Source: a phage. Taken from it: 23,076 nt of DNA. Below are positions 10,188-23,076 of the stretch, piece by piece (the stretch's first letter is position 1; every line of letters starts with the position of its first letter). The stretch lies in assembly GCA_025289735.1 (NCBI GenBank), contig GCA_025289735.1_4764.2; one strand, given 5' to 3'. The notes beneath the pieces are model-generated. The model was given only the letters and a program-made list of their open reading frames with translations. It did no database searches and was not told the DNA's origin. The position numbers and the translations under genes were made by a program.

Positions 10188-10192
10188 AGGTG

Positions 10193-10634: not shown

Positions 10635-10640
10635 AAATAG

Positions 10641-10669: not shown

Positions 10670-10700
10670 ACCCCCACAAACAAACGAAAGGAGAATCAAA

Positions 10701-10859: not shown

Positions 10860-10868
10860 GGTGATAAT

Positions 10869-11366: not shown

Positions 11367-11587
11367 GTAGCATAAAATATTTTGCTTTCTTGTGTTTTAT
11401 GATGTTCTTCACATTCTTAGCATGTGTTTTCTTTACCTGGCTTGCTCATGTTGATAATGCAACCGGACCGTTTTACTTCTTCTGTGTATTGTCTGTGTTG
11501 ACTGGTGCTCTTGTTACGTGGATGATTCGAGATTGTTACGGAATGTATAAGTTTGAAAAGACTCGACCGAAATGGGGCAAACGATGA
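11363..11587 (+). CDS. small membrane protein (74 aa)
   Basis: Hydrophobic ORF, ATG at 11363 (track start 11348 is TTG). Confidence 0.55.
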   Translation: MSSIKYFAFLCFMMFFTFLACVFFTWLAHVDNATGPFYFFCVLSVLTGALVTWMIRDCYGMYKFEKTRPKWGKR

Positions 11588-11766
11588 AATTATTTGCATG
11601 GCTAATTATTTTAAATGTAATTGTTAAGACCTTTCTCGCTGGTCTGATGATGGCGCATAGCACCGAACCAGAAGAAGCATTAACGTATTTTGTTGCTTAT
11701 GTGTTGGGATTCTTGCTTACTGCGTGGATGTGTGATGAATATCGAAGAATTGAGGTAAAACCATGA
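11584..11766 (+). CDS. small membrane protein (60 aa)
   Basis: ATG at 11584 overlapping the upstream stop (ATGA); hydrophobic. Confidence 0.5.
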   Translation: MKLFAWLIILNVIVKTFLAGLMMAHSTEPEEALTYFVAYVLGFLLTAWMCDEYRRIEVKP

Positions 11767-11981
11767 AAATGACTTTTTATATCTTAGCAAGTATCATGCT
11801 TGTGATCTCTTCTGCCTTATTTGCATTTCTTACCGTTTGGGGGATCTGTACTGATGCGAAGCCGTGGGATATCGTAGAAAATACGGTTATGTTTATTATT
11901 AGTGTCATGTGTCTTTTTGATGCATTTAACTCTATCAAGGAAGAAGATCAAAAACGTCGCGAGAGAAAGCGATATAAATAA
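11763..11981 (+). CDS. small membrane protein (72 aa) with basic C-terminal tail
   Basis: Start overlaps the upstream stop; two hydrophobic segments then KEEDQKRRERKRYK. Confidence 0.55.
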   Translation: MKMTFYILASIMLVISSALFAFLTVWGICTDAKPWDIVENTVMFIISVMCLFDAFNSIKEEDQKRRERKRYK

Positions 11982-12132
11982 TAGTGAACTAAAGACAGCG
12001 CGGTTAGAATGATTTGGACGTCACCTAGCCGCATTTATTACAGCGTATGTGGGCTATCCGGTACGCTAAAGCATTCACTTGCTAGGCCGCTAGCAGGTTG
12101 GAGACAAGGAAGATTCGCTACCTTCCCTATAA

Positions 12133-12156
12133 GCCACTCTTCGGAGTGGCTTTTTT
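12133..12156 (+). terminator. rho-independent terminator (UUCG tetraloop)
   Basis: GCCACTC-TTCG-GAGTGGC followed by TTTTTT. Confidence 0.8.
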
Positions 12157-12184
12157 ATTGCCTAAAATTTTTTTAAAAAAGTTG

Positions 12185-12213
12185 TTGACACCAGATCCGG
12201 CCTATAGCATAAT
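12185..12213 (+). promoter_or_regulatory. early promoter module copy 3 (TTGACA-17-CATAAT)
   Basis: TTGACA 12185-12190, CATAAT 12208-12213, preceded by an A/T tract (12161-12180), followed by leader ATCGAAACGAAACACAC. Confidence 0.7.
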
Positions 12214-12259
12214 ACACCCATCGAAACGAAACACACTTTCTTAAACGGAGAATCAAATT

Positions 12260-12445
12260 ATGGCACGTCGCATCACTAAAGCACTGAAAGCAGTAAGCAA
12301 AGAAAACGTAGTAGCTATTCTGGTAATCTGGGGTTATAACGAAGAATCCGCTAAACAGAAAGTTGAAGCAGGGTTTGAACTGGCAGTAAAAGCAATGCCT
12401 AATGATGACTCTGTAGGACTGGCAAACTATATTGCATATTTCTGA
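12260..12445 (+). CDS. hypothetical protein (61 aa)
   Basis: ORF behind promoter copy 3 with GGAGAA RBS. Confidence 0.6.
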   Translation: MARRITKALKAVSKENVVAILVIWGYNEESAKQKVEAGFELAVKAMPNDDSVGLANYIAYF

Positions 12446-12453
12446 TAAAAGTG

Positions 12454-12482
12454 TTGACAGGGGAGGATAACTCCCCTACAAT
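12454..12482 (+). promoter_or_regulatory. early promoter module copy 4 (TTGACA-17-TACAAT) with spacer palindrome
   Basis: TTGACA 12454-12459, TACAAT 12477-12482; GGGGAG/CTCCCC inverted repeat (12460-12476) in the spacer; leader ATCAACGAAACGGGAGG. Confidence 0.65.
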
Positions 12483-12511
12483 ACAACCATCAACGAAACG
12501 GGAGGACCAAA

Positions 12512-12733
12512 ATGATTAACTTTAAAGACGCAGCAAAAGAAATTATCGACTTTGAGCGTGAACTGTTTGAGATGGAACCAAATATGAGTAAACTGGAATT
12601 GGCTAACCAGATCTGGTGCTCTAAGATGAATCCATCCGACCGCTTAGAAGTTATGAACATCGTAGGCGAAGTGAAAGGTAGTGCATTAATGAAACTCCGC
12701 GCTTGTCACGCTTACATCGCTGATCAACTATAA
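12512..12733 (+). CDS. hypothetical protein (73 aa)
   Basis: ORF behind promoter copy 4. Confidence 0.6.
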   Translation: MINFKDAAKEIIDFERELFEMEPNMSKLELANQIWCSKMNPSDRLEVMNIVGEVKGSALMKLRACHAYIADQL

Positions 12734-12742
12734 GGGGGTAAT

Positions 12743-12937
12743 ATGGGGGATAAACCATTAGTACAACTAAGAGTACGCTATAACCAGATTTTAGCATTAC
12801 TTAAAGCTGAGGGTGTAGACCCATCGGACCGCGAGGCTGTAAAAGCGTGTCTATCTGATACGGTACAACCAAAACATAACTATGCTTGTTATATGTACTT
12901 TTACAATAGGATGAATAGACCGTTTGAGTTTGAATAA
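12743..12937 (+). CDS. hypothetical protein (64 aa)
   Basis: ORF with AAGGGGG RBS. Confidence 0.55.
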   Translation: MGDKPLVQLRVRYNQILALLKAEGVDPSDREAVKACLSDTVQPKHNYACYMYFYNRMNRPFEFE

Positions 12938-12959
12938 CGTTAAGTGTTGAGGTGATACT

Positions 12960-13148
12960 ATGGAAGACCAAATTGAACAATTACGCGAATCCGCTAAAGA
13001 GCATGGTATGAGCGAAGGATTTGTTGAATGGTTTATCTCTAAAAAGGTTGATTCCTGCGGGTGCTTTAACTTCCTTACTATGTCCATTATGTGGGAAGGT
13101 TGGAAAGGTGCTGTAGAAACTGCCTTAAAAATTTTGAAAAAAGACTAA
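12960..13148 (+). CDS. hypothetical protein (62 aa)
   Basis: ORF with GAGGTGA RBS. Confidence 0.5.
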   Translation: MEDQIEQLRESAKEHGMSEGFVEWFISKKVDSCGCFNFLTMSIMWEGWKGAVETALKILKKD

Positions 13149-13156
13149 AAAAGTTG

Positions 13157-13185
13157 TTGACACGCGATAGGGTGTATAGCATAAT
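13157..13185 (+). promoter_or_regulatory. early promoter module copy 5 (TTGACA-17-CATAAT) inside an 11-bp perfect inverted repeat
   Basis: TTGACA 13157-13162, CATAAT 13180-13185; GATAGGGTGTA (13166-13176) and TACACCCTATC (13186-13196) form a perfect inverted repeat around the -10; leader CGAAACGAAACACGAA and AAGGAG RBS. Confidence 0.7.
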
Positions 13186-13228
13186 ACACCCTATCGAAAC
13201 GAAACACGAACTACTAAGGAGTATCAAA

Positions 13229-13555
13229 ATGAAACCAGTATCTGTTAAAGTTATCTTCTCTGAATCTTCTGTATTCGCTAAAGCAAACGAAGTATTCCAC
13301 TTCGAAGACTTCGAGCGTAAAGCACAGGACGCGGCAGCAAAAGCCTATGAAAGCGAATATGACAAAACTCAAATCGAGGTTACTTTCGAAAACGGCACTA
13401 CTTACGCTTGCCGCCTTGACCTGGGTGATCGTCTGTCTGGCTTCCGTCACCATGTAGAGAAGACAATCGCTTTCTCTAAAACCGAAAAAGGAAAACACTA
13501 CTTTTCTGTTTTCGGTACTAAAAATCTGGATTTCTTGAAAACTGTTTCTTTCTAA
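13229..13555 (+). CDS. hypothetical protein (108 aa)
   Basis: ATG at 13229 sits 8 nt after AAGGAG, behind promoter copy 5. The track entry 13091..13555 has an over-extended N-terminus that would cross the promoter. Confidence 0.65.
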   Translation: MKPVSVKVIFSESSVFAKANEVFHFEDFERKAQDAAAKAYESEYDKTQIEVTFENGTTYACRLDLGDRLSGFRHHVEKTIAFSKTEKGKHYFSVFGTKNLDFLKTVSF

Positions 13556-13563
13556 GGTATATT

Positions 13564-13746
13564 ATGAAAAAGATTAATTGGTTAGCGAACATAGGCGCGG
13601 TCTGCGCCTTTAACATCCTCGGATGGATAATGTTACATTTTGATGAGCGAGTTTCAAAATGTGAGGGTGCATTGATTCTCGGATCTGCTAGCATATTCAT
13701 TATGCTGTATGCAATTGCTGTTGACTTAAGCCGCGAGGATTGTTAA
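13564..13746 (+). CDS. small membrane protein (60 aa)
   Basis: Two hydrophobic segments. Confidence 0.5.
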   Translation: MKKINWLANIGAVCAFNILGWIMLHFDERVSKCEGALILGSASIFIMLYAIAVDLSREDC

Positions 13747-13747
13747 T

Positions 13748-13942
13748 ATGAATATTACTAATACTGCCATCGGATTTTCGAGCGCCTTTGCTAGTTTCTT
13801 TGCGCTGGTCTGTATGTTTGTTTTTATTCCTGTTGTATATCTTGGATATTGTGATATTGAAATTGCATTGATTGCTGGGATCTATATGTGGGTTGCGGTC
13901 TTTGTTCTTTCTGTTATAATGTGCAAGATTATTGACCATTGA
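13748..13942 (+). CDS. small membrane protein (64 aa)
   Basis: Strongly hydrophobic, two predicted TM helices. Confidence 0.5.
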   Translation: MNITNTAIGFSSAFASFFALVCMFVFIPVVYLGYCDIEIALIAGIYMWVAVFVLSVIMCKIIDH

Positions 13943-13964
13943 TTAACTATGTGAGGATTATATT

Positions 13965-14285
13965 ATGAGCAAACTGTTTGAAACTCCGCGTGAAATTCTG
14001 ATTGACAAGCTGAAAGAACGTGGTTTTAAAATCAAAGATGCAACCAAATATAGTCGAATTGATGAAATTAAGTTGCATTCTCTTGATGAACTGGTAGAAT
14101 ATGTTGCGGCGGTGGCTGATCCGCAGTTTGATGTGATTGTAGGTGACGTTGAATATCTCGATAATGTATATTCATTCTTCACTTATGGTAAAATTGTGTC
14201 TGTGAAAATATCATTCTGTGAAAATGTGGAGGTGCTTGCTAGTGAACCAGAAAAACCAACTGACAACGGTCCTACGGCAGCGTAA
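13965..14285 (+). CDS. hypothetical protein (106 aa)
   Basis: ORF with GAGGA RBS. Confidence 0.55.
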   Translation: MSKLFETPREILIDKLKERGFKIKDATKYSRIDEIKLHSLDELVEYVAAVADPQFDVIVGDVEYLDNVYSFFTYGKIVSVKISFCENVEVLASEPEKPTDNGPTAA

Positions 14286-14556
14286 CAAGGAAGACCGTCT
14301 GATTTATGCGCTGGCGGTTATCCTTGAAAAAGAATTACCGGATCTTGATGTAGTTTTTACTGACCGACCAGTAGGCCAACGTTACGGAGGATATGACAGC
14401 CTAGTTTATCCATCATATAGCATTGAAATGTGGGTAGAAGATTTTAAAAACTTGGCTGATACATCTAAACCGCTTTATTTGTGGGATGTTGAGTATAATT
14501 GCGATCCTAACTGGCCTGGCATTAATGTTTATGCGTCTATGACTTTAAAGGTGTGA
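14224..14556 (+). CDS. hypothetical protein (about 105-110 aa)
   Basis: Overlaps the end of the preceding ORF in another frame. Start uncertain: ATG 14224 or GTG 14242 (GGAGG RBS at 14229-14233). Confidence 0.5.
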   Translation: MWRCLLVNQKNQLTTVLRQRNKEDRLIYALAVILEKELPDLDVVFTDRPVGQRYGGYDSLVYPSYSIEMWVEDFKNLADTSKPLYLWDVEYNCDPNWPGINVYASMTLKV

Positions 14557-14558
14557 TA

Positions 14559-14717
14559 ATGGTTGAACAAATGTTAACTTCAATGGTAATGGCTTTCTGT
14601 GTGGGTGTTGTTCTGTTTGCGATGATTCCAAAAGACCGAATGAATCTGCTTGTTGCTGTGTGTTTGGGTGTGGTTAGCGGTTGGTGTGGAATCGTTCTAG
14701 AACACGCTCTGCGATGA
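14559..14717 (+). CDS. small membrane peptide (52 aa)
   Basis: ATG at 14559 just after the upstream stop; manual translation MVEQMLTSMVMAFCVGVVLFAMIPKDRMNLLVAVCLGVVSGWCGIVLEHALR. Confidence 0.45.
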   Translation: MVEQMLTSMVMAFCVGVVLFAMIPKDRMNLLVAVCLGVVSGWCGIVLEHALR

Positions 14718-14725
14718 TTAACAAT

Positions 14726-14750
14726 GCGGGTAGGGTAATGTACTACCCGC
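14726..14750 (+). other. stable stem-loop (GCGGGTAG / CTACCCGC), no T-run
   Basis: 8-bp perfect stem with 9-nt loop between the small ORFs and the membrane-protein/endolysin cluster. Confidence 0.5.
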
Positions 14751-14778
14751 ACTAAATTAGCTCACTGGAGGGCTTTCT

Positions 14779-14967
14779 ATGGCGTTTTGTCTATGGTTGC
14801 TTATAGTATGCTTTGTAATTGGTTTATGCTTCTATACTGGCGTATTCTGTTTTGTCGCCTGGATAGACGGCGGATTCTCTAATATCATTTTGCTTGCAGG
14901 ATCAATTGCCTCGTTTCTGTTTATTTGGCTATTTTCATATTTGATTGGTGAATGGGATTTATTATGA
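14779..14967 (+). CDS. small membrane protein (62 aa)
   Basis: GGAGGG RBS; two hydrophobic helices. Confidence 0.55.
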   Translation: MAFCLWLLIVCFVIGLCFYTGVFCFVAWIDGGFSNIILLAGSIASFLFIWLFSYLIGEWDLL

Positions 14968-15143
14968 ACAAATATATGTTTTGGGCGACCATTGCCTATG
15001 TTGTGATTGCGGTAGTATGGGGATTCTGTGTTATTGTCGCTTCTCTGATCTGGTGGGAATCACTTGGTGCGGGTTGTCTGATTAGCGGCGCATCATGTCT
15101 TATCACTGGCGTGATTGTTGGTTTTCTTGTGTCGGAGGCTTGA
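14964..15143 (+). CDS. small membrane protein (59 aa)
   Basis: ATG 14964 overlaps the upstream stop; hydrophobic. Confidence 0.5.
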   Translation: MNKYMFWATIAYVVIAVVWGFCVIVASLIWWESLGAGCLISGASCLITGVIVGFLVSEA

Positions 15144-15145
15144 CA

Positions 15146-15361
15146 ATGGTTTTCTTCGGTCTTATTATAATGGTGCTTAATGTCATTTGTGGCGTTGCTA
15201 TGTTAGCTATGGCCTTTACTGTTCCTATGTCTGTTGATAGCGCCGCATCCGTAGGTGTGTTGGGAATTGTAAACCTGTTTACCGCCCTAGCATGTTGGAT
15301 CACCGGACGCGATGAGGTAATGTATTACTTTTATAAACGTAAACAGAGAAAAGGAAAATAA
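15146..15361 (+). CDS. small membrane protein (71 aa) with basic C-terminus
   Basis: ATG 15146 with GGAGG RBS at 15134-15138; two TM segments then KRKQRKGK. Confidence 0.5.
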   Translation: MVFFGLIIMVLNVICGVAMLAMAFTVPMSVDSAASVGVLGIVNLFTALACWITGRDEVMYYFYKRKQRKGK

Positions 15362-15362
15362 T

Positions 15363-15554
15363 ATGAAATTTGCATTTGGTTTTACCGTGATGTTGATTAT
15401 TGCTCTGAGTATGTGTACCGGAATGCTTGTATTTGGTCTTGCAAACGGATTTAGCATTTATAATAATCAGTGGGTTGATTGGGGAATGGTTGTCGTTAAT
15501 GCGATCCTGATTGGTGCTAATACAAGAAATCTATGCAGGATCGCCGGAATCTAA
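15363..15554 (+). CDS. small membrane protein (63 aa)
   Basis: Hydrophobic ORF directly upstream of the endolysin gene. Confidence 0.5.
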   Translation: MKFAFGFTVMLIIALSMCTGMLVFGLANGFSIYNNQWVDWGMVVVNAILIGANTRNLCRIAGI

Positions 15555-15582
15555 ATATTATCACTCACAAAGGGGGTGAATA

Positions 15583-15972
15583 ATGTTTAAATTATCTCAA
15601 AGAAGCAAAGATCGGCTTGTTGGTGTACATCCTGATCTGGTAAAAGTCGTTCATCGTGCGTTAGAACTGACTCCGGTCGATTTTGGTATTACGGAAGGTG
15701 TGCGTAGTCTAGAAACGCAAAAGAAATATGTTGCGGAAGGTAAATCTAAGACTATGAAATCTCGTCATCTTCACGGTTTCGCGGTTGACGTTGTAGCGTA
15801 TCCGAAAGATAAGGATACATGGAACATGAAATACTACCGCATGATCGCGGATGCATTTAAACAAGCTGGTCGAGAATTGGGTGTTCCTGTTATCTGCGGT
15901 GTTGATTGGGTTACTTTTAAAGACGGACCGCATATGGAACTCGATAAAAAGGTATATCCAGACCCGGTATAA
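15583..15972 (+). CDS. endolysin, L-alanyl-D-glutamate peptidase (peptidase M15, T5-type)
   Basis: 129 aa; similar to T5 endolysin as recalled (VHPDL.KVV.RALELTPVDFGI.EGVR; SRHLHGFAVDV with H-x6-D zinc site; DGPHMEL). Occupies the position of T4 gene e but belongs to a different enzyme family. Confidence 0.8.
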   Translation: MFKLSQRSKDRLVGVHPDLVKVVHRALELTPVDFGITEGVRSLETQKKYVAEGKSKTMKSRHLHGFAVDVVAYPKDKDTWNMKYYRMIADAFKQAGRELGVPVICGVDWVTFKDGPHMELDKKVYPDPV

Positions 15973-15981
15973 CTAAAATCA

Positions 15982-16006
15982 AGCCAGCTTAATCGCTGGC
16001 TTTGTG
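15982..16006 (+). terminator. probable terminator hairpin after the endolysin gene
   Basis: AGCCAGC-TTAAT-CGCTGGCT followed by TTGTG; weak T-run. Confidence 0.45.
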
Positions 16007-16017
16007 AGGATTATAAA

Positions 16018-16593
16018 ATGGCTTTTAAATATTGGGATGAATCCCTACAAAACGAGATAAAACTTAGATATGCTCATATAGAGGGTATCTTATATTATAG
16101 AGTCGATAGTAAAGCTATCAAAGGACGACCATTAGGGAGTAGATATAAACACGGCGATTTAGTTAAAGTCAGAACAAATAAAGATGGTCATCTTAGATTT
16201 TGGCATAGTAGAGATGACGGTCTTCCTAGAGTTCATCTATTCGTGCATAGGGTTGTTTGGTTTCTAGAACATGGGACGCAAGTTAGATTAATTGATCATA
16301 TTGACGGTAATCCTGCGAATAACAATCCTCCAAATCTTAGGGAGGCAACCGACGCGCAAAATCAACATAATAGAAAGAAGAAGTCTAAAAAGTTTTCTAG
16401 TGTGTATAAGGGTGTTAGTAAGTCTAACAGGAAGGATTTGCGTAAGAAATGGAGAGCTAGTATAATGGTCAACCTAAAAAGACATGTTCTTGGACAATAT
16501 GACACAGAAATCGAAGCTGCAATCGCTTATGATAATGCAGCTAGGAAATTTTATGGAGAATATGCTCTATTGAATTTCCCAGATCCAAAATAA
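16018..16593 (+). CDS. HNH homing endonuclease with C-terminal AP2 DNA-binding domain
   Basis: HNH core HRVVWFLEHGTQVRLIDHIDGNPANNNPPNLREATDAQNQHN; AP2-like YKGVS...WRASI...GQYDTEIEAAIAYDNAARKFYG. AGA/AGG/ATA-rich codon usage contrasts with neighbouring genes. Confidence 0.8.
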   Translation: MAFKYWDESLQNEIKLRYAHIEGILYYRVDSKAIKGRPLGSRYKHGDLVKVRTNKDGHLRFWHSRDDGLPRVHLFVHRVVWFLEHGTQVRLIDHIDGNPANNNPPNLREATDAQNQHNRKKKSKKFSSVYKGVSKSNRKDLRKKWRASIMVNLKRHVLGQYDTEIEAAIAYDNAARKFYGEYALLNFPDPK

Positions 16594-16655
16594 AATATTA
16601 ACCATCAACGGGGAGACAATCTAAGGATCTCTCCCCGTTCACTGGAGACTTTACC

Positions 16656-17147
16656 ATGAATATTGACATTGATTTAGAATTAGAAAGTAAAGATTTGATT
16701 TATGCTGCGTGTGTATCTGCCGTAAATGGCATCATAGAACGCCGTAAGCGACGCAATTTTGCTGATGACCTAGATTCCATTGTCTCAATCAATTTAGGCC
16801 GTCAGACAGGGCATACAGACGCTACAATCAAGTTATATGACCATTATACGCGAAAGGGCTATAGTGTCTTTATCGTTTCAACGACGCGGGAACATGCCAA
16901 AACGATCCGAGATCGCGGTCGCGGTGAAAATGTAAATATTTCAAATGTAGATTGTACGTCTATCCGAACTTTCCTGAATCCGATCACATGGCGAGGTCGT
17001 AGTCTTGACAAAACAATTTTTATCCTAGATACTACCATGCGCGGATTTACTGACAGCGTATTGCAGTTTTTAGAAGTAAATCGACTTAGTGTTGGGATGG
17101 GTAATGTAGAAGACCAACCTATTTTCATTGGCTTAGGTATTAACTAA
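16656..17147 (+). CDS. hypothetical protein (163 aa)
   Basis: ORF with GGAG RBS; no recognised homolog. Confidence 0.6.
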   Translation: MNIDIDLELESKDLIYAACVSAVNGIIERRKRRNFADDLDSIVSINLGRQTGHTDATIKLYDHYTRKGYSVFIVSTTREHAKTIRDRGRGENVNISNVDCTSIRTFLNPITWRGRSLDKTIFILDTTMRGFTDSVLQFLEVNRLSVGMGNVEDQPIFIGLGIN

Positions 17148-17272
17148 TGAAAAATAAAGATAGCGTAGCTCGTCGATTTCGTGCTACAATTAAAAAGAAT
17201 CGTAAAATCCAACCTGATAAACTCTATGGTGTTTTGGTTGGTAAAATTAATGACGAACGTCCTGATCTATAA
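17147..17272 (+). CDS. possible small basic protein (41 aa)
   Basis: ATG overlaps the upstream stop (TAATG); translation MKNKDSVARRFRATIKKNRKIQPDKLYGVLVGKINDERPDL. Not in the ORF track (below 60 aa). Confidence 0.35.
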   Translation: MKNKDSVARRFRATIKKNRKIQPDKLYGVLVGKINDERPDL

Positions 17273-17282
17273 GAGGTGAATT

Positions 17283-17699
17283 ATGGAATTTAAAGCAATT
17301 CAAATCATGAAAGGTGAGCATAAAGGTACTATTATTGGTGGACACTTCGCGCCTATGATTCTGGTATCCGAACCGAAAGCACTGATCGGCGCTAAAGTAA
17401 TTGTTAGTAAAACTTTCGCAGAAGACCATGTGATCACCGCAGAAGACGTCGATTCGCTGGCACTGCACACAACTAGCTTCCGTCCGGTGATTGTAGATAA
17501 TGGTGCTCCTGTTGTCGAAGGAGGTCAGCACGCGAATATCAATGTGATGAGTCGCGATCTTCTTCTTGATGCGGTTGCTAATCCTGATAAGTATCCGCAA
17601 CTAACCATTCGCGTTAGCGGATATGCCGTAAGATTCAATAGTCTGACTCCAGACCAACAACGTGATGTTATTTCGCGCACCTTTACGGAAGCAATGTAA
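17283..17699 (+). CDS. grcA: autonomous glycyl radical cofactor (GrcA/YfiD-like)
   Basis: 138 aa; C-terminal [60 protein letters not shown] is near-identical to E. coli GrcA and contains the RVSGY glycyl-radical motif. AAGAGGTGA RBS. Confidence 0.85.
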
Positions 17700-17705
17700 A
17701 TTTTT

Positions 17706-17738
17706 AAGCCAATCCGAAAGGGTTGGCTTTATTTTTAT
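17706..17738 (+). terminator. rho-independent terminator after the grcA-like gene
   Basis: AGCCAATCC-GAAA-GGGTTGGCT followed by TTATTTTTAT. Confidence 0.75.
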
Positions 17739-17746
17739 GAGGTGAT

Positions 17747-18277
17747 ATGATGATTAAAAGATATTGTGATGACCATCCGGTCGAAGAGTGGAAAGTGATT
17801 GAGGATCTTTATCCGTTAACTCATTTTGAGATTAGTTCTCATGGTAGGGTTAGAAACTCCATAACAGGAAAATACTTGTCTATTGTAGACACGAAAGATT
17901 ATACTAAAGTTTCTTTTAAACATCGCCCCAGCAAAACACATAGAACGTTAAACATGCATAGAATGATGGCGGTTGCGTTTATTCCGAATCCAAACAACTA
18001 CCGTGTAGTTAACCATAAGGACGGAAACAAACGAAACTATGATCTTTATAATCTTGAATGGACTACAGACACACGAAATCTTGTTCATGCAAAGGAAGAA
18101 GGATTAAACAAAAATTGGGGCGAGAACCACGGAAACGCAAAACTAACAGATGAACAGGTGAAAGAGATTTTAGATTCTCCGCATATGAAGGGCGTAGAGC
18201 TTGCAAGAAAATATAATGTTTCACCGTCTGCTATTTGTCAGATTCGAAAAGGCGTTCGACGTAACGTAAAATACTAA
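17747..18277 (+). CDS. HNH homing endonuclease (NUMOD4-like N-terminus, HNH_3 core, C-terminal HTH)
   Basis: HFEISSHGRVRN (NUMOD4-like); HRMMAVAFIPNP..VNHKDGNKRNYDLYNLEW (HNH); NAKLTDEQVKEI...ARKYNVSPSAICQIRKG (DNA-binding). Confidence 0.8.
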   Translation: MMIKRYCDDHPVEEWKVIEDLYPLTHFEISSHGRVRNSITGKYLSIVDTKDYTKVSFKHRPSKTHRTLNMHRMMAVAFIPNPNNYRVVNHKDGNKRNYDLYNLEWTTDTRNLVHAKEEGLNKNWGENHGNAKLTDEQVKEILDSPHMKGVELARKYNVSPSAICQIRKGVRRNVKY

Positions 18278-18290
18278 TGAGGGTTTAATT

Positions 18291-18989
18291 ATGCATACAA
18301 TGGTTAAAATGGTCTTCGGATCTCACTTGTACGGCCTTGATACTGAAAATTCAGATAAAGATTATCGTGGTATCTTTGTTCCGACTGCTAAAGAAATTAT
18401 CTTAGGATCGATGAAAGAACACTATGACCAAAGCACTAGCGGTCAAGGTATCAAGAACACCAAAGACGATATTGATGTTAATATGTTCAGTCTAAAACGG
18501 TTTATCAATCTGGCATGTAAAGGCGATATCGGCGCTATTGACATGGTGCACGCGCCTAGTAACATGTTGATTGAATCCTCCAGAGAATGGGAATACATCC
18601 GAACACATCGCGATAAATTCTATCATGTTGGGATGTGGGGTTTGTCTGGCTATCTCAAAAAGCAGGTAGCCAAATCTGAAAAGTATTTCAGTAACTGGAA
18701 AGATCTTTCTCATGCTCTGCGTGTTGGTTATCAGCTACTTGAAATCTATCAGACAGGTGATCTACAATTCCCGCTCGCGCGACGTTCTTCTATTTTAGCG
18801 TGTAAGTTAGGAGAAAGAACCTTTGATAATGTGCGGGAAGAATTGAAAGATCTCTACGAGCGTGTTAAACTCGCGCGTGAAGAGGCAAAGAAAAACGGTA
18901 TGCCGGAAGAACCAGATGTTGACTTTTGGAAAGATTTATTAGAATATATTCATCTGACCGTTGTTCTGGAACACTATACCCGTGGTTAG
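18291..18989 (+). CDS. Pol-beta superfamily nucleotidyltransferase (RlaP/YcgL-like), function unknown
   Basis: 232 aa; N-terminal VFGSHLYGLDTENSDKDYRGIF fits the hG[GS]-x(9-13)-DxD nucleotidyltransferase signature. Confidence 0.6.
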   Translation: MHTMVKMVFGSHLYGLDTENSDKDYRGIFVPTAKEIILGSMKEHYDQSTSGQGIKNTKDDIDVNMFSLKRFINLACKGDIGAIDMVHAPSNMLIESSREWEYIRTHRDKFYHVGMWGLSGYLKKQVAKSEKYFSNWKDLSHALRVGYQLLEIYQTGDLQFPLARRSSILACKLGERTFDNVREELKDLYERVKLAREEAKKNGMPEEPDVDFWKDLLEYIHLTVVLEHYTRG

Positions 18990-19010
18990 TTAATATAGGA
19001 GATTAAGAAA

Positions 19011-19205
19011 ATGAAAGTTTATACCAATAGCAATAAAGGACAAGATATTACGCCAGGAAAGATGTATGATTTTACCCCGACACGAGACTACGAAAATCCA
19101 CCGACAATCGGTTACATCAAAGATGATATAGGTTATCGTATTACGATCCTTCTTGATGGTGGATGTTCTCATCTTCGCGGTGATAAATGGGAGTTAGTAC
19201 CATGA
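19011..19205 (+). CDS. small protein, paralog family member A (64 aa)
   Basis: Shares Y.(F/Y)TP...GYI.DD.G..I.I.L...C.HL.G..W.L with the next two ORFs. Confidence 0.6.
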   Translation: MKVYTNSNKGQDITPGKMYDFTPTRDYENPPTIGYIKDDIGYRITILLDGGCSHLRGDKWELVP

Positions 19206-19447
19206 TGTATGTGATGACACCTTATAGTAACCGCAAGTATATTACACCAAATACACTGTATGAATATACACCACATGAAAGATTTTCGAATAGTGGTTAT
19301 ATCCGTGATGATAAGGGACACCAGATTTTTATTTGTCTTAAAAATTGTGCACACTTAGACGGTCGAACCTGGACACTGATCGAAGAACCAAAACAACCTG
19401 AGAATAAAGGTCTTTGGAATGTGCTAAAAAAATTCTTGAAAAAGTAG
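19202..19447 (+). CDS. small protein, paralog family member B (81 aa)
   Basis: ATG 19202 overlapping the upstream stop; motif ITPNTLYEYTP...GYIRDDKGHQIFICLKNCAHLDGRTW. Confidence 0.6.
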   Translation: MMYVMTPYSNRKYITPNTLYEYTPHERFSNSGYIRDDKGHQIFICLKNCAHLDGRTWTLIEEPKQPENKGLWNVLKKFLKK

Positions 19448-19476
19448 TTGACAGCATGAAACGGGGGTAGTAATAT
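19448..19476 (+). promoter_or_regulatory. early promoter module copy 6 (TTGACA-17-TAATAT) with inverted repeat over the -10
   Basis: TTGACA 19448-19453; GGGGGTA/TACCCCC inverted repeat (19463-19482); leader ATCGAAACAACAAAGGAG. Near-identical to copy 2. Confidence 0.65.
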
Positions 19477-19507
19477 ACCCCCATCGAAACAACAAAGGAG
19501 TATTAAA

Positions 19508-19843
19508 ATGAGTGTTAAAGAAGTGTTTGTTTATACCGACTATGACGGGTGCGCCTATCTCACTGCTGGAAAACTTTACCGTTGTGAGATTATTCATGGT
19601 ACGCTAGGTCGAATTATGTGCGATCCTATTACAAAATTGTGGAAAAATAATCCTAGTGAGCGAGAAACTCTTATTAACCTAGATCCAGACGGTTGTTCAC
19701 ACTTGGGCTATAGAAAATGGCATATAGTTACACATGATGCTTATGGTATTCATCTTGCTACTAAAGAATTAACTATTGACAAGTTCAAGTTTAAAGAAAT
19801 CCCGTTTGTATACTGGCTTCGCAATTTGTTTAAGAAAGGATAA
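19508..19843 (+). CDS. small protein, paralog family member C (111 aa)
   Basis: Contains DPDGCSHLGYRKWHIV, matching the C.HL.G..W motif of the two upstream paralogs, with an extended C-terminus. Confidence 0.6.
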   Translation: MSVKEVFVYTDYDGCAYLTAGKLYRCEIIHGTLGRIMCDPITKLWKNNPSERETLINLDPDGCSHLGYRKWHIVTHDAYGIHLATKELTIDKFKFKEIPFVYWLRNLFKKG

Positions 19844-19847
19844 TAAA

Positions 19848-20270
19848 ATGGAAACAATTAACGTACATGTTCGCCGTAGTAAGCTGCGTAGATTCTTCGA
19901 AACCGAAATGCGCAAAACCAATGCGCAGATCAAAGAAAAGTGTTTGAATGATGGTTATGGTGAGTATATTTTCATTCGCTTTAGTCCGCATATGATCGAC
20001 CGTCTAACCGATCGTCATATCGATGAACATAAGACAATGGAACTATTCAATAAGATAGAAACTCGTTTGCCAGAGATCTTCGACTTCCTGAAAATGGAAG
20101 ACCGACCGAATCGATTAGAAATTACTGACGGTAACATGTGGATCGGGATGACAGTAGATCTAATCGAAGAGGGTAAGCCATATCACGGTCTATGCTGCCG
20201 AATGATTATAGAGAATCCAAAACGACTGGCGGGTAAAATGTCGGCGGTTGTTTTGAAGGTAGACCAATAA
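19848..20270 (+). CDS. regB: RegB sequence-specific endoribonuclease
   Basis: 140 aa from ATG 19848 (the track start 19776 is over-extended). Similar to T4 RegB as recalled: V.IRR.KLRR.FE.E.R..N..I.E, RLEITDGN.W.G.TV, CRM.I.N..RL.GK.S..V.K. Confidence 0.8.
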   Translation: METINVHVRRSKLRRFFETEMRKTNAQIKEKCLNDGYGEYIFIRFSPHMIDRLTDRHIDEHKTMELFNKIETRLPEIFDFLKMEDRPNRLEITDGNMWIGMTVDLIEEGKPYHGLCCRMIIENPKRLAGKMSAVVLKVDQ

Positions 20271-20293
20271 TGGAAATTGGTTAAAAATAATGC

Positions 20294-20322
20294 TTGACTT
20301 TCTGGTGATAGGGCTATATTAT
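20294..20322 (+). promoter_or_regulatory. sigma70-like promoter (TTGACT-17-TATTAT)
   Basis: TTGACT 20294-20299, TATTAT 20317-20322, upstream of the signal-peptide lytic transglycosylase gene. An overlapping TGCTTGA resembles a MotA box but its spacing is off. Confidence 0.45.
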
Positions 20323-20356
20323 GGAATCAGAAAGTTAAGCCAAACAGGAGAAATTA

Positions 20357-20947
20357 ATGTTAAAAGTTCTAAAAGCGATAGTATTGAGTCTGTCACTAGC
20401 CGTTGGTGCTACACACGCATCGACTAGCGCACCGATCAAAAAAGCGCCGATAGACAACTTTACAGCACACCAACTAGATAATTTACATTTCGCCTATCAA
20501 TACGGCGAGCAATTCGAGAAAAGCGGTAAGTTGAAAAAGTACCATCCGAATATTCGCTATAACGGAAAGGGTTTAGGTCACATCCTGGCGGGTATCGCAT
20601 GGCAAGAATCAAGCGCGGGTGCAAACTTAGCACCAAAGAAAAATCATCATGCTTATGGATTATTTCAAAATTACCTTAAAACGGTGAAAGCGAAAAATGC
20701 AAAGCGCGGTGTTAAAATGAGTGATCGCCAGACTATCAACTTTATCATGAATCGCGAGGTTTCTGCATTCTACGCGATGGATGAGTTAGCATACTGGCTG
20801 GATGTTCGAAACGGTAATATCCGACTCGCGCTAGCTTCTTACAATGCTGGATGGAACTATAAAGCCGGGTTAGGCTATGCTGATGACGTACTAAAAAAGG
20901 CTAACCATCTAAAGAGTAAAGGCATTCTTAAGACTAAACGCTATTGA
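20357..20947 (+). CDS. secreted lytic transglycosylase (SLT domain) with Sec signal peptide
   Basis: N-terminal MLKVLKAIVLSLSLAVGATHA-ST signal peptide; SLT motifs AGIAWQESS (catalytic E-S), YGLFQ and ASYNAG. Confidence 0.75.
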   Translation: MLKVLKAIVLSLSLAVGATHASTSAPIKKAPIDNFTAHQLDNLHFAYQYGEQFEKSGKLKKYHPNIRYNGKGLGHILAGIAWQESSAGANLAPKKNHHAYGLFQNYLKTVKAKNAKRGVKMSDRQTINFIMNREVSAFYAMDELAYWLDVRNGNIRLALASYNAGWNYKAGLGYADDVLKKANHLKSKGILKTKRY

Positions 20948-20954
20948 GGAATAT

Positions 20955-21314
20955 ATGAAAAAGTTGACAATAATTGCTATGATTGCTATGATGTTCTCGG
21001 CTGGTGCGCTTGCTAGTAATGAGCGCCCTTATCCAAAGTTTGAATACAAAGGATTTGAGATCAACAAAAAGATCATTAAAACTTTCTGTGATGATGATAA
21101 CATGTGTAGTGATTTTATCGCGCTCGAACTTGATGAAGCATACAAACAAGGTCGAGACGAAAAACGAAAAAATCGAGCGTGGGATCTGAGTATTGCCAGC
21201 TTTGCTAAAACAAAACGCAACCTTTGTGATACTGCCCCTGATAAGCAATTATGCTTTGCTTATCGCGACACACTGTTAAGCCGTTTTATGGCTGGGTTGT
21301 CTTCCCGTGACTAA
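20955..21314 (+). CDS. periplasmic protein with signal peptide (119 aa), unknown function
   Basis: MKKLTIIAMIAMMFSAGALA-SN signal peptide; four Cys in the mature part; directly downstream of the SLT gene. Confidence 0.6.
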   Translation: MKKLTIIAMIAMMFSAGALASNERPYPKFEYKGFEINKKIIKTFCDDDNMCSDFIALELDEAYKQGRDEKRKNRAWDLSIASFAKTKRNLCDTAPDKQLCFAYRDTLLSRFMAGLSSRD

Positions 21315-21329
21315 TGAGAGGTTTATATT

Positions 21330-21785
21330 ATGATTATTGATACTGTAAAGGGCGATCTCATCGCCCTGTTTAAACAAGGAAACGGTCATTTAATTCATGG
21401 TTGTAATTGTTTTCATACTATGGGTGCTGGTATTGCTGCAAAGATCGCGAAAGAGTTCCCGCAAGCGTTAGAGATTGACAAGCAAACTTCTCGCGGTAAG
21501 GTAGAAAAGCTGGGTGGGTTTAGTGTCTGGACGCATCAAGTTAATGGTTATAACTGGTGCGGGGTGAATCTATATACCCAATTCCGACCGGGTCCAAATG
21601 CTGAATATGGTGCTATCCTGAAAGGATTTGAGACTATCAATGATGTTTTTGAAGGTGCTATACAGCCTTTCTATATTCCTAAAATCGGTTGCGGTATCGG
21701 TGGCCTTGAGTGGGAATGTGTAGAAGAGATCATTAATATTGCTACTCCAGACATTAACATTGTGGTGGTTGAATATGACAAATAA
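21330..21785 (+). CDS. macrodomain protein, TARG1/OARD1/DarG-like (putative ADP-ribose hydrolase)
   Basis: 151 aa; GDLIALFKQGNGHLIHGCNCFHTMGAGIAAKIAKEFP and PKIGCGIGGLEWECVEEIINIA...INIVVVEY parallel human TARG1 segments (GDLF..C......AHCIS.DCRMGAGIA..FK..F; MPRIGCGLDRLQWENV..MIEEVF....I.I.VY). Confidence 0.6.
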   Translation: MIIDTVKGDLIALFKQGNGHLIHGCNCFHTMGAGIAAKIAKEFPQALEIDKQTSRGKVEKLGGFSVWTHQVNGYNWCGVNLYTQFRPGPNAEYGAILKGFETINDVFEGAIQPFYIPKIGCGIGGLEWECVEEIINIATPDINIVVVEYDK

Positions 21786-21969
21786 AAATGATCTATATTC
21801 CGGTGATTGGGTGAAACGTCAGTCTGTAGAAAACGTAACTTGTTTTCGTTGTTTCACTGAATACAATATAAAAACCGCTCCTGTTAGTGTTCCAAAGACA
21901 GACGGGTATTATATTAAAGAACCGCATTGCCCTAAATGTAAATGTCGATTATATTGGAGTCATCTATGA
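21775..21969 (+). CDS. small zinc-ribbon protein (64 aa)
   Basis: ATG 21775 (track start over-extended); C-x2-C ... C-x2-C pattern (CFRCF ... CPKCKC). Confidence 0.5.
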   Translation: MTNKNDLYSGDWVKRQSVENVTCFRCFTEYNIKTAPVSVPKTDGYYIKEPHCPKCKCRLYWSHL

Positions 21970-22184
21970 AGAAGCCGAATACCGCTCACATGAAAGAAAA
22001 CTGCCGATGTGTTAGATGTGGTTGGCCTATTATATTCACTTGCTGTAACGACGATATGCAGCGTTTACCGTGGGGAATGTGGGATTGGTGGATGTATTGC
22101 AGCAATAAAGGTTGTGACCATCATGAAGGTGAAGGAGTCTTTCAGGAAACACCTGATTGGGTGGAGGTGATAGAAAATGCTTGA
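21966..22184 (+). CDS. small Cys/His/Trp-rich protein (72 aa), probable zinc binding
   Basis: ATG 21966 overlapping the upstream stop; CRCVRCGW...CCNDD...CSNKGCDHHEGEG. Confidence 0.5.
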   Translation: MKKPNTAHMKENCRCVRCGWPIIFTCCNDDMQRLPWGMWDWWMYCSNKGCDHHEGEGVFQETPDWVEVIENA

Positions 22185-22470
22185 GACTATCATTAATCTT
22201 GTTGTGTGGACTTTTATTTTCGTTATTGTTATTATGGCTGGTATTGAGATTGTAAAACAATATCTATTGCAATCTCGAAATAAACATGTTGTAGTTGATA
22301 TGGACTCGCAAGGAAATAAACTGATCCGGTTAGAAGATGGTCGGGAATATTGGGTAGGTTATCCAAAGACACTACGCGGATTTATCTTTGCTATGGGTGT
22401 TTGCTTCTTTTTCCTTTGTATCTGGACTTATATCGGTTTAGGTCTTGTTGGATTTTTGGAGATTAATTAA
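22177..22470 (+). CDS. membrane protein (97 aa), two TM helices
   Basis: Hydrophobic N- and C-terminal segments flanking a soluble core; overlaps neighbours by a few nt. Confidence 0.55.
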   Translation: MLETIINLVVWTFIFVIVIMAGIEIVKQYLLQSRNKHVVVDMDSQGNKLIRLEDGREYWVGYPKTLRGFIFAMGVCFFFLCIWTYIGLGLVGFLEIN

Positions 22471-23066
22471 TGGCGCAATTATATTTCTACTATGCATCTA
22501 TGAACGCTGGCAAATCAACTTCCCTGTTACAAAGTGCTTATAACTATACCGAACGTGATATGCGAGTATTAATTCTTAAGCCAGCGATTGATAATCGAGA
22601 TTCAGAAAGTGAAGTCGTTTCCCGAATTGGTCTAAGTGCTCCAGCGATCACATTCACTAAATCAGATGATCTTTTCGATTTGGTTTATCGTGAATCACTA
22701 GGTAAGCGTAGACCAGATCGCTGGCGTCCTGATGCTGTGTTTGTAGACGAAGCCCAATTTATGACTAAAGAGCATGTTTTAGGCTTGTGTGCGCTTGTTG
22801 ATGATGCAAATATCCCTGTACTGTGCTATGGCCTTCGCACTGACTTTCAGGGCAATCTATTTGAAGGATCTGCGGCATTAATGGCATTTGCTGATAAACT
22901 GGTCGAAATGAAGGGTATTTGTCATTGTGGTAAGAAAGCAACAATGGTCCTTCGTGTAGATAAAGAGGGTAATGTTATTCGCGATGGTGCTCAAATAGAA
23001 GTTGGTGCAGAGGATAAATATGTTTCTGTGTGCCGTAAACATTTTATTGACGGTACTACCAAATAA
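22470..23066 (+). CDS. tk: thymidine kinase
   Basis: 198 aa; similar to T4 Tk as recalled: YAAMNAGKS.SLL..A.NY.ER.M.VL.LKPAID.RDS..EVVSRIG, VFVDEAQF, YGLRTDF.G.LFEGS..L.A.ADKL.E.K..CHCGKKA. Confidence 0.9.
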   Translation: MAQLYFYYASMNAGKSTSLLQSAYNYTERDMRVLILKPAIDNRDSESEVVSRIGLSAPAITFTKSDDLFDLVYRESLGKRRPDRWRPDAVFVDEAQFMTKEHVLGLCALVDDANIPVLCYGLRTDFQGNLFEGSAALMAFADKLVEMKGICHCGKKATMVLRVDKEGNVIRDGAQIEVGAEDKYVSVCRKHFIDGTTK

Positions 23067-23076
23067 GAGTTAATCA

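What the first reader, a model, noticed from the sequence alone, without database searches (positions are those of the whole stretch)
21330..21785. TARG1/DarG-like macrodomain gene in the vs/tk accessory locus: candidate ADP-ribosylation-reversing counter-defense
The 151-aa protein carries the hallmark segments of the TARG1/OARD1 macrodomain subfamily (GDL...HGCNC..MGAGIA and PKIGCG..LEW...I.I.VY). The antitoxin DarG of the DarTG phage-defense system is a macrodomain of this subfamily that removes DarT-installed ADP-ribose from thymidine in ssDNA. A phage-borne free-standing copy in a hypervariable early region is a plausible anti-DarT or anti-ADP-ribosyltransferase factor. T4-type phages also ADP-ribosylate host proteins (Alt, ModA, ModB), so an alternative role is tuning the phage's own modifications.
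Basis: partly seen in the sequence, partly recalled or inferred. Interest (0 to 1): 0.8.

Follow-up and report, generated by a model that had tools for sequence, protein, structure and literature searches.

The report
Phage macrodomain that counters DarTG2 defence

Summary
The ORF at 21330-21785 (+) is real. It encodes a 151-aa macrodomain: Pfam Macro above the gathering score, AlphaFold2 pLDDT 95.9, and best fold matches TARG1, Poa1p and DarG.

The window is a Krischvirus (RB49/JSE-like). The gene is 100% identical in DNA to JSE tk.4 and sits in the same regB-vs.1-vs-tk.4-tk-rI order as T4 tk.4, to which it is 44% identical (E=3e-45).

T4 tk.4 was named adfM in a November 2025 preprint. It was the single transposon hit under DarTG2, and a clean knock-out made T4 sensitive. 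A distantly related PhiKZ macrodomain, also called AdfM, was shown biochemically to strip ADP-ribose from thymidine in ssDNA.

One correction. The TARG1 Lys84/Asp125 dyad and DarG Lys80 are absent here. They align to Gln84 and Gly124. Gln is kept in 119 of 122 relatives. This matches the lysine-independent thymidine-ADP-ribose hydrolase SCO6735 (essential Gln85, Asn27). The residues to mutate are N26 and Q84.

This particular protein is untested. Interest is low to moderate.

The parts
21330..21785 (+). tk.4 / adfM orthologue: 151-aa stand-alone macrodomain (stop codon included)
   Evidence: ORF. Pfam Macro. PHROG 335. 100% nt identity to JSE tk.4. 44% aa identity to T4 Tk.4, E=3e-45. AF2 pLDDT 95.9. 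Foldseek TARG1/DarG.
21316..21321 (+). Shine-Dalgarno GAGAGG, 8 nt upstream of the ATG
   Evidence: read directly from the sequence
21396..21407 (+). codons H23-G24-C25-N26. N26 is the conserved macrodomain Asn (DarG N22, PhiKZ AdfM N23, SCO6735 N27). H23 corresponds to SCO6735 H24.
   Evidence: HMM alignments to 5m3i, 5e3b and 4j5r. N26 is present in 122/122 and H23 in 118/122 relatives. Roles of these residues are from PMC9411070 and PMC13309987.
21420..21437 (+). codons M31-G-A-G-I-A36, the 'MGAGIA' loop of the ADP-ribose pocket (A33 where DarG and SCO6735 have Lys)
21579..21581 (+). codon CAA = Gln84, at the position of the catalytic Lys of DarG (K80) and TARG1 (K84) and of the essential Gln85 of SCO6735
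   Evidence: alignments. Q in 119/122 relatives. SCO6735 mutagenesis from PMC9411070.
21678..21713 (+). codons P117-W128 (PKIGCGIGGLEW), the phosphate-binding loop. G124 occupies the position of TARG1 Asp125.
   Evidence: alignment to 4j5r. Position 124 is A or G in 120 of the 122 aligned sequences and a gap in the other two.
20955..21314 (+). vs (valyl-tRNA synthetase modifier), the upstream neighbour in the same orientation
   Evidence: annotation of RB49 and JSE at the homologous position
21775..21969 (+). downstream 64-aa ORF whose ATG overlaps the end of tk.4 by 11 nt (probably translationally coupled). Phage zinc-binding domain.
   Evidence: RB49/JSE annotation. PF23903 E=1.1e-23.
22470..23066 (+). 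tk (thymidine kinase), which closes the vs-tk interval

Best explanation
The gene is the Krischvirus orthologue of T4 tk.4 (adfM, anti-DarT factor macrodomain). The proposed mechanism has four steps. (1) The gene is co-oriented with the regB-vs.1-vs-tk.4-tk block; when it is expressed was not tested. (2) On infection of a DarTG2+ host, DarT2 is released and ADP-ribosylates thymidines in single-stranded phage DNA, which blocks replication. (3) The 151-aa macrodomain binds the ADP-ribose moiety in its pocket (the MGAGIA and PKIGCGIGG loops) and hydrolyses the thymidine-ribose bond, restoring unmodified DNA. (4) It acts as an orphan antitoxin that lacks the DarT-binding C-terminal domain of DarG. 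Catalysis is predicted to be of the SCO6735 type, not the DarG/TARG1 type. Gln84, held in place by Asn26, positions the distal ribose and a water molecule. No Lys nucleophile and no Lys/Asp dyad is present. What is shown here: the fold, the orthology, the synteny and the identity of the active-site residues. What is shown elsewhere: the T4 knock-out phenotype, SCO6735 chemistry, and PhiKZ AdfM biochemistry. What is inferred: that this protein has the same activity and phenotype.
For: Macrodomain: Pfam 28.7 bits against a gathering score of 22. AF2 pLDDT 95.9. Foldseek top hits are TARG1, Poa1p and DarG with bound ADP-ribose, TM 0.71-0.82. PADLOC DarG E=3.9e-14. NCBIfam antitoxin_DarG macro part E=7.9e-13. 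Orthology: 44% identity over the full length to T4 Tk.4, E=3e-45. The gene order regB-vs.1-vs-tk.4-(3 small ORFs)-tk-rI is the same in T4, RB49 and JSE. DNA is identical to JSE tk.4. Function of the orthologue: tk.4 was the only significant HIDEN-SEQ hit under DarTG2, and a clean knock-out sensitised T4 (10.1101/2025.11.20.689424). T4 lacking adfA and adfN stays DarTG2-resistant, which had predicted such a factor (PMC11825919). Precedent: PhiKZ AdfM removes T-ADPr from ssDNA oligonucleotides and protects against DarTG2 (PMC13309987). Active site: N26 and Q84 align to SCO6735 N27 and Q85, and G124 aligns to TARG1 D125. Q84 is kept in 119/122 relatives. SCO6735 Q85A and N27S lose dT-ADPr hydrolase activity, and SCO6735 protects against DarT in vivo (PMC9411070). 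The same phage type also carries a 30.3/AdfN-like NADAR protein, so it holds a two-part anti-DarTG kit like T4.
Against: No experiment exists on this protein or on any Krischvirus. Identity to T4 AdfM is only 44%. Even for T4 AdfM the enzymatic step is inferred, not measured. The SCO6735 DNA-positioning lysines are not conserved: K34 aligns to A33, and the K89 loop is shorter. The protein is acidic (pI 5.3), although the biochemically proven PhiKZ AdfM is too (pI 5.05). No sigma-70-like promoter signal above chance was found near the gene: 16 sites against 11.6 +/- 4.4 expected. Expression timing is therefore not established here.
Confidence: 0.75

Rival explanations
1. The macrodomain erases or tunes the phage's own ADP-ribosylation marks, i.e. 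Alt/ModA/ModB-type protein modification or RNAylation, rather than host-inflicted DNA modification.
For: The RB49-type genome encodes an Alt homologue (27% identity over 695 aligned positions, E=1e-57), a second Alt-like fragment, and a weak ModB-like ORF (E=1e-7). SCO6735 and TARG1 also act on ADP-ribosylated protein (PMC9411070).
Against: In T4, tk.4 is dispensable on K-12 and became conditionally essential only with DarTG2. From established knowledge, not tested here: Alt and Mod enzymes modify arginine, a linkage cleaved by ARH-family hydrolases and not by TARG1-class macrodomains. Close homologues also occur in Vequintavirus, Felixounavirus and Pakpunavirus phages, which are not known for Alt/Mod-type programmes.
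Confidence: 0.08
2. It is a small-molecule enzyme, as the legacy 'phosphatase' annotation says: an ADP-ribose-1''-phosphate phosphatase (Poa1p-like) or an O-acetyl-ADP-ribose deacetylase that clears NAD-derived metabolites during infection.
For: PHROG 335 and RefSeq name it 'phosphatase' or 'A1pp phosphatase motif'. Poa1p structures rank among the best fold matches, E=1.8e-9, TM 0.65-0.71. Several metagenome sources label homologues 'O-acetyl-ADP-ribose deacetylase'.
Against: These names are generic macrodomain labels, not tested activities. The T4 orthologue has a specific DarTG2 phenotype. Sequence and profile matches to DarG, TARG1, BT1257 and SCO6735 are as good as or better than those to Poa1p.
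Confidence: 0.07
3. It counters a different or broader set of ADP-ribose-based host defences, for example RNA-targeting ADP-ribosyltransferases such as CmdT, other DNA ADP-ribosyltransferases, or ADPR-derived immune signals. On this reading DarTG2 is only one target or not the main one.
For: The pocket recognises ADP-ribose generically. The family is very widespread across phage groups, in 2,732 records. The window also carries other anti-defence genes, Acb1 and Dmd, so the region is a counter-defence arsenal.
Against: CmdTAC still defends robustly against T4, which carries Tk.4 (PMC11618068). Macrodomain and NADAR erasers are base-specific in the DarTG systems (PMC11825919). No data link Tk.4 to any other system.
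Confidence: 0.07
4. It neutralises DarT2 mainly by binding and inhibiting the toxin, as a stoichiometric antitoxin mimic like ICP1 AdfB, rather than by catalysis.
For: Catalytically dead SCO6735 Q85A inhibits DarT in vitro, more strongly than DarG or TARG1 mutants (PMC9411070). ICP1 AdfB works by direct binding (PMC11481870).
Against: The active-site residues N26, Q84 and the Gly-rich loops are nearly invariant across 122 relatives, which points to selection on catalysis. The protein lacks the DarG C-terminal DarT-binding domain.
Confidence: 0.03

Closest known systems
T4 Tk.4 = AdfM (anti-DarT factor macrodomain; Humolli et al., bioRxiv 10.1101/2025.11.20.689424)
   Same: Positional orthologue: directly downstream of vs and upstream of tk. 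44% identity over the full length. Same length class (151 vs 155 aa). Same PHROG. Identical active-site residues (H, N, YTQ, the PxIGxGIG loop).
   Different: 56% of residues differ. The small ORFs between tk.4 and tk are unrelated: here they are zinc-binding domain ORFs. The Krischvirus copy has never been tested.
SCO6735 of Streptomyces coelicolor (PDB 5e3b), an orphan macrodomain thymidine-ADP-ribose DNA hydrolase
   Same: Stand-alone ~150-residue ALC1/TARG1-class macrodomain with no adjacent darT. Gln at the catalytic-Lys position (Q85 vs Q84). Asn27 vs N26 and His24 vs H23. Gly in place of TARG1 Asp125. A bacterial relative of the window protein is likewise orphan.
   Different: About 22% identity in the fold alignment. 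SCO6735 K34 aligns to A33 here, and the K89-bearing loop is shorter by five residues. SCO6735 is a bacterial chromosomal gene, not a phage gene.
DarG2 antitoxin macrodomain (Mtb 5m3i, T. aquaticus 5m31/5m3e)
   Same: Best single-sequence PDB hit (E=4.8e-8). PADLOC and NCBIfam DarG models match the macro part. Same conserved Asn (N22 vs N26). Same presumed substrate.
   Different: No C-terminal DarT-binding domain: only positions 2-141 of the 338-position model are matched, 48 bits against a cutoff of 250. Catalytic Lys80 is replaced by Gln. No darT neighbour.
Chimallivirus AdfM (PhiKZ gp104; Morgan et al., Cell Rep 2026, PMC13309987)
   Same: Phage-encoded stand-alone macrodomain that counters DarTG2. 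It carries the same name.
   Different: Only 26% identity over 129 aligned positions (pairwise E=1e-6). It is DarG-type, with N23/K78 in an FPTK motif. It is expressed late and imported into the phage nucleus. It is effectively a separate lineage.
Human TARG1/OARD1 (PDB 4j5r/4j5s)
   Same: Best structural match (Foldseek E=6.9e-11, TM 0.76-0.82, 28-29% identity). Shares the MGAGIA and PRIGCG motifs.
   Different: The TARG1 catalytic dyad Lys84/Asp125 aligns to Gln84/Gly124. The Schiff-base mechanism described for TARG1 therefore cannot operate here.

Membership tests
Macro domain (Pfam PF01661) | Score at or above the Pfam gathering threshold over the whole domain | tested here: met
   28.7 bits against a gathering score of 22, profile positions 1-118 of 118
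TARG1/ALC1-like macrodomain class | Fold closest to TARG1, DarG, Poa1p and SCO6735 rather than MacroD-, PARG- or viral Mac1-type domains | tested here: met
   Foldseek ranks 1-16, 19, 21 and 33 are TARG1, Poa1p, DarG, BT1257 and SCO6735. Coronavirus and alphavirus macrodomains score lower.
TARG1 (OARD1) | Catalytic Lys84/Asp125 dyad | tested here: not met
   K84 aligns to Gln84 and D125 aligns to Gly124. Across 122 relatives, position 84 is Q in 119 and position 124 is A or G in 120, with two gaps.
DarG2 antitoxin | NCBIfam equivalog NF048014 score at or above the cutoff | tested here: not met
   48.4 bits against a cutoff of 250. Only model positions 2-141 of 338 are matched.
DarG2 antitoxin | C-terminal DarT-binding domain and an adjacent darT gene | tested here: not met
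   The protein is 151 aa and consists of the macrodomain only. Its neighbours are vs and a zinc-binding ORF.
DarG2 antitoxin | Catalytic Lys80 together with Asn22 | tested here: not met
   The Asn is conserved (N26), but K80 aligns to Gln84.
SCO6735-type lysine-independent dT-ADPr hydrolase | Gln at the catalytic-Lys position, positioned by the conserved Asn, with Gly-rich phosphate loops | tested here: met
   NLYTQF aligns to NMIGQH, HGCN aligns to HVCN, and PKIGCGIGG aligns to PRIGCGLAG. Residue roles are from PMC9411070.
SCO6735-type lysine-independent dT-ADPr hydrolase | DNA-positioning lysines K34 and K89 | tested here: inconclusive
   K34 aligns to A33. K89 lies in a loop that is five residues shorter here. 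R86 could substitute, but position 86 is variable in the family.
T4 Tk.4 / AdfM family | Full-length homology and the conserved position between vs and tk | tested here: met
   44% identity, E=3e-45. Synteny in T4, RB49 and JSE. PHROG 335 E=1e-61.
T4 Tk.4 / AdfM family | Protects the phage against DarTG2 and removes ADP-ribose from thymidine in ssDNA | not testable with these tools
   Genetic evidence exists only for T4. Biochemistry exists only for PhiKZ AdfM and SCO6735.
Chimallivirus AdfM (PhiKZ gp104) | Close sequence relationship and a DarG-like N23/K78 active site | tested here: not met
   26% identity and an FPTK motif against YTQ here

The most novel reading that the evidence does not exclude
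The large T4-type Tk.4/AdfM family, found in at least 2,732 phage records, is a lysine-independent 'Gln-type' thymidine-ADP-ribose DNA hydrolase lineage. It would be mechanistically allied to orphan bacterial enzymes such as SCO6735 and BT1257, not to DarG. Phages would then have recruited DNA de-ADP-ribosylases at least twice: the K-type in chimalliviruses and the Q-type in T4-like, rV5-like, Felix-O1-like and PAK_P-like phages. The Q-type might bring higher turnover or a broader substrate range, including protein-linked ADP-ribose or direct DarT inhibition.
Probability: 0.45. Interest if true: 0.4.

Novelty: already known. Interest (0 to 1): 0.25.

Why it matters
DarTG2 blocks phage replication by ADP-ribosylating thymidines in ssDNA. 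Knowing which phages carry an eraser helps predict host range, which matters for phage therapy against DarTG2-bearing E. coli. This window adds little new biology. It shows that the RB49/JSE group carries the same counter-measure as T4, and an RB49 genome record also encodes an AdfN-like NADAR protein. The useful by-product is mechanistic. The T4-type AdfM family has Gln where DarG and TARG1 have their catalytic Lys.

Tried and rejected
1. DarG membership was rejected. The score is far below the NCBIfam cutoff, there is no C-terminal domain, no catalytic Lys, and no darT neighbour.

2. TARG1-type catalysis was rejected, because the Lys/Asp dyad is absent.

3. I looked for an own promoter or terminator. 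Consensus sites are not above chance: 16 promoter-like sites against 11.6 +/- 4.4 expected, and 3 terminator-like sites against 2.6 expected. Nothing is concluded about timing.

4. An Rfam scan of the whole window found nothing.

5. It does not lack them: Alt-like and ModB-like ORFs exist in an RB49 genome. That rival is weakened only by the T4 genetics.

6. I checked whether a bacterial relative sits beside a darT gene. The Pelagimonas homologue P0099 is orphan, between a peptidase M23 gene and a tryptophan halogenase gene.

It was rerun without that row.

8. Literature searches for other work on Tk.4 found only the HIDEN-SEQ preprint.

9. dN/dS was not informative. The window and JSE are identical, and RB49 differs at 6 nt (4 synonymous and 2 non-synonymous codons).

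Full report
**Observation.** The ORF at 21330-21785 (+) exists exactly as described. It has an ATG start, encodes 151 aa, and is preceded by a GAGAGG ribosome-binding site at 21316-21321, 8 nt before the ATG and 1 nt after the stop codon of the upstream gene. The protein passes the Pfam Macro gathering score (28.7 bits against 22, full-length domain match). It matches PHROG 335 at E=1.1e-61. By sequence alone it hits the solved macrodomains of M. tuberculosis DarG (5m3i, 4.8e-8), Bacteroides BT1257, Streptomyces SCO6735 and human TARG1/OARD1. An AlphaFold2 model built on 40 homologues is confident (pLDDT 95.9, pTM 0.90). Its best Foldseek matches in the PDB are TARG1 (E=6.9e-11, TM 0.76-0.82), Poa1p, T. 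aquaticus and M. tuberculosis DarG, BT1257 and SCO6735, several of them ADP-ribose complexes.

**What the gene is.** The window is a Krischvirus, i.e. an RB49/JSE-type Straboviridae phage. Window 20300-23076 is 97.7-99.3% identical to 58 such genomes. The gene is identical at the DNA level to JSE tk.4 and differs from RB49 tk.4 at 6 nt. RefSeq annotates both as 'tk.4, phosphatase, contains A1pp phosphatase motif'. T4 Tk.4 is 44% identical over the full length (E=3e-45). It occupies the same slot: regB - vs.1 - vs - tk.4 - three small ORFs - tk - rI in T4, RB49 and JSE. This is positional orthology.

**What is known about the orthologue.** A November 2025 preprint (Humolli et al., 10.1101/2025.11.20.689424) used phage transposon sequencing and found tk.4 as the single significant T4 gene depleted on a DarTG2-expressing host. 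A clean knock-out made T4 sensitive to DarTG2. The authors noted structural similarity to the M. tuberculosis DarG macrodomain and named the gene adfM, anti-DarT factor Macrodomain. The enzymatic step was inferred, not measured.

- Earlier work had predicted such a factor, because T4 lacking adfA and adfN remains DarTG2-resistant (PMC11825919).
- Independently, a chimallivirus macrodomain (PhiKZ gp104), also named AdfM, removes ADP-ribose from thymidine-modified ssDNA oligonucleotides and protects against DarTG2 (PMC13309987).
- The window protein is only 26% identical to PhiKZ gp104, which has a DarG-like FPTK motif (N23/K78). The two 'AdfM' proteins are separate lineages within the same macrodomain class.

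Three independent HMM alignments agree on the active-site correspondence: to Mtb DarG, to TARG1, and to SCO6735/BT1257, using both the single sequence and a 30-sequence family profile. I checked the residue numbering by counting along the printed chains. TARG1 chain indices 78 and 119, with an offset of +6, give K84 and D125. DarG chain indices 32 and 90, with an offset of -10, give N22 and K80. SCO6735 chain indices 44 and 47, with an offset of -20, give H24 and N27.

- Window N26 corresponds to DarG N22 and SCO6735 N27.
- Window Q84 corresponds to DarG K80, TARG1 K84 and SCO6735 Q85.
- Window G124 corresponds to TARG1 D125.

Across the window protein, T4 Tk.4 and 120 database relatives, position 84 is Gln in 119 of 122, and position 124 is Ala or Gly in 120, with two gaps. 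This is the SCO6735 configuration. In that enzyme Q85A/E and N27S abolish hydrolysis of thymidine-linked ADP-ribose on DNA. The proposed mechanism is water-mediated and lysine-independent, turnover on DNA exceeds that of DarG and TARG1, and the protein protects S. coelicolor from DarT (PMC9411070).

My best explanation is that this protein is an orphan, SCO6735-type thymidine-ADP-ribose DNA hydrolase that the phage uses to undo DarT2 damage. Two points are unresolved. The SCO6735 DNA-positioning lysines K34 and K89 are not conserved (A33 and a shorter loop). No promoter signal above chance was found.

**Family membership.** The protein is a Macro domain and a TARG1/ALC1-class fold (both met). 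It is not a DarG: it scores 48 bits against the 250-bit equivalog cutoff, matches only the macro part of the model, has no DarT-binding domain, no Lys80 and no darT neighbour. It is not TARG1-like in catalysis. It is a member of the T4 Tk.4/AdfM family by homology and synteny. PADLOC's DarG model matches both the window protein (3.9e-14) and T4 Tk.4 (6.3e-10), which reflects the shared macro part.

**Rivals.**

- *Tuning the phage's own ADP-ribosylation.* An RB49 genome does encode Alt-like and weak ModB-like proteins, so this cannot be dismissed on grounds of absence. However, T4 tk.4 has no phenotype on K-12 and a specific one with DarTG2. Alt and Mod enzymes make arginine linkages that this macrodomain class is not known to cleave (established knowledge, not tested here).
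- *The legacy 'phosphatase' or OAADPr-deacetylase reading.* This rests on generic macrodomain labels and on fold similarity to Poa1p.
- *A broader anti-ADP-ribosyltransferase role.* This is weakened because CmdTAC still defends strongly against Tk.4-bearing T4 (PMC11618068).
- *Stoichiometric DarT inhibition.* This is possible as a side activity, since SCO6735 Q85A inhibits DarT. The near-invariant active site argues for catalysis.

**Context.** The family is widespread. tblastn finds homologues in 2,732 of 50,697 phage records across Escherichia, Klebsiella, Salmonella, Pseudomonas, Vibrio, Acinetobacter and Aeromonas phages. The closest relatives outside Krischvirus are Vequintavirus proteins at 68% identity, in an unrelated gene neighbourhood. 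Other Straboviridae copies are only 44-52% identical. This suggests lateral exchange of the gene. A bacterial homologue in Pelagimonas is a stand-alone gene with no darT nearby. The same phage type also carries a homologue of T4 30.3/AdfN, the NADAR anti-DarTG1 enzyme (38% identity). The window itself encodes Acb1 (anti-CBASS) and Dmd.

**Verdict.** The finding is already known: the gene is an annotated tk.4, and the function of its T4 orthologue has been published as a preprint. The added value here is twofold. First, the assignment of the Krischvirus copy to this family. Second, the T4-type AdfM family carries Gln, not Lys, at the catalytic position; the HIDEN-SEQ passages read here do not mention this, and it redirects the mutagenesis to N26 and Q84.

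- Confidence that it is the Tk.4/AdfM orthologue: about 0.97.
- Confidence that it acts as an anti-DarTG2 DNA de-ADP-ribosylase: about 0.75.
- Interest: 0.25.

Noticed in passing
window 1-8098 versus 8126-23076 (junction near 8100): The left 8.1 kb (gene 59 loader, a CYTH-domain ORF at 1214-1810(-), rnh at 1821-2768(-), a gp34-like 1246-aa ORF at 3031-6771, and a gp35-like 379-aa ORF at 6805-7944) maps to JSE 144.4-152.5 kb. The rest (gp3, gp1, 57B ... tk) maps to JSE ~65 -> 50 kb on the other strand. Among the eight records listed for that search, only Krischvirus LF73P4 matched across the junction in one piece. JSE has a 380-aa ORF annotated 'endonuclease' just upstream of gp3, where the window has the gp35-like gene. 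This suggests a large rearrangement between paralogous genes, or a different genome arrangement in a subgroup.
   Followed up: partly
window 9678-10148 (+) and 10869-11072 (+): Two known anti-defence genes lie in the same early region: Acb1/57B (anti-CBASS, PF23474 E=1.5e-51) and Dmd (inhibitor of the RnlA/LsoA toxins, PF17587 E=1.5e-15). Together with tk.4 the window carries at least three counter-defence genes.
   Followed up: partly
window 21775-21969 (+), 21942-22184 (+), 22177-22470 (+): The three small ORFs between tk.4 and tk overlap one another. They differ from T4 tk.3/tk.2/tk.1. Two carry 'phage zinc binding' domains (PF23903 E=1e-23; PF23895 E=6e-34). The third (97 aa) had no Pfam match. 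Their function is unknown.
   Followed up: partly
L004 3501-3959 (Escherichia phage LL12, Vequintavirus); P0006 (Bas59): The window protein is 68% identical to macrodomains of rV5-like Vequintavirus phages, which sit in an unrelated neighbourhood of hypothetical genes. It is only 44-52% identical to those of other T4-like genera. This is evidence of lateral transfer of this gene between phage families.
   Followed up: partly
L009 40026-40469 and 27095-29905; L010 37863-38198 (Krischvirus RB49, OZ035808.1): The RB49-type genome encodes a homologue of T4 30.3/AdfN (NADAR, anti-DarTG1; 38% identity over the full length), an Alt-like ADP-ribosyltransferase plus a second Alt-like fragment, and a weak ModB-like ORF.
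   Followed up: partly
window 16018-16593 (+), 17747-18277 (+), 17283-17699 (+), 18291-18989 (+): Two HNH homing-endonuclease ORFs (one with an AP2 domain, one with NUMOD4) flank vs.6. The vs.6 ORF carries a glycine-radical domain (PF01228, E=5e-15). nrdC.11 is an RlaP-type nucleotidyltransferase.
   Followed up: no
window 13091-13555 (+): A 154-aa ORF with a GTG start carries an LPD25 domain ('large polyvalent protein associated domain 25', E=2.9e-14) among the small early ORFs. JSE annotates only a shorter hypothetical ORF in the corresponding region.
   Followed up: no
T4 vs gene; its window counterpart is 20955-21314: The HIDEN-SEQ preprint reports vs, the gene immediately upstream of tk.4, as the most strongly depleted T4 gene in minimal medium compared with LB. 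The two neighbouring genes thus have separate conditional phenotypes.
   Followed up: no
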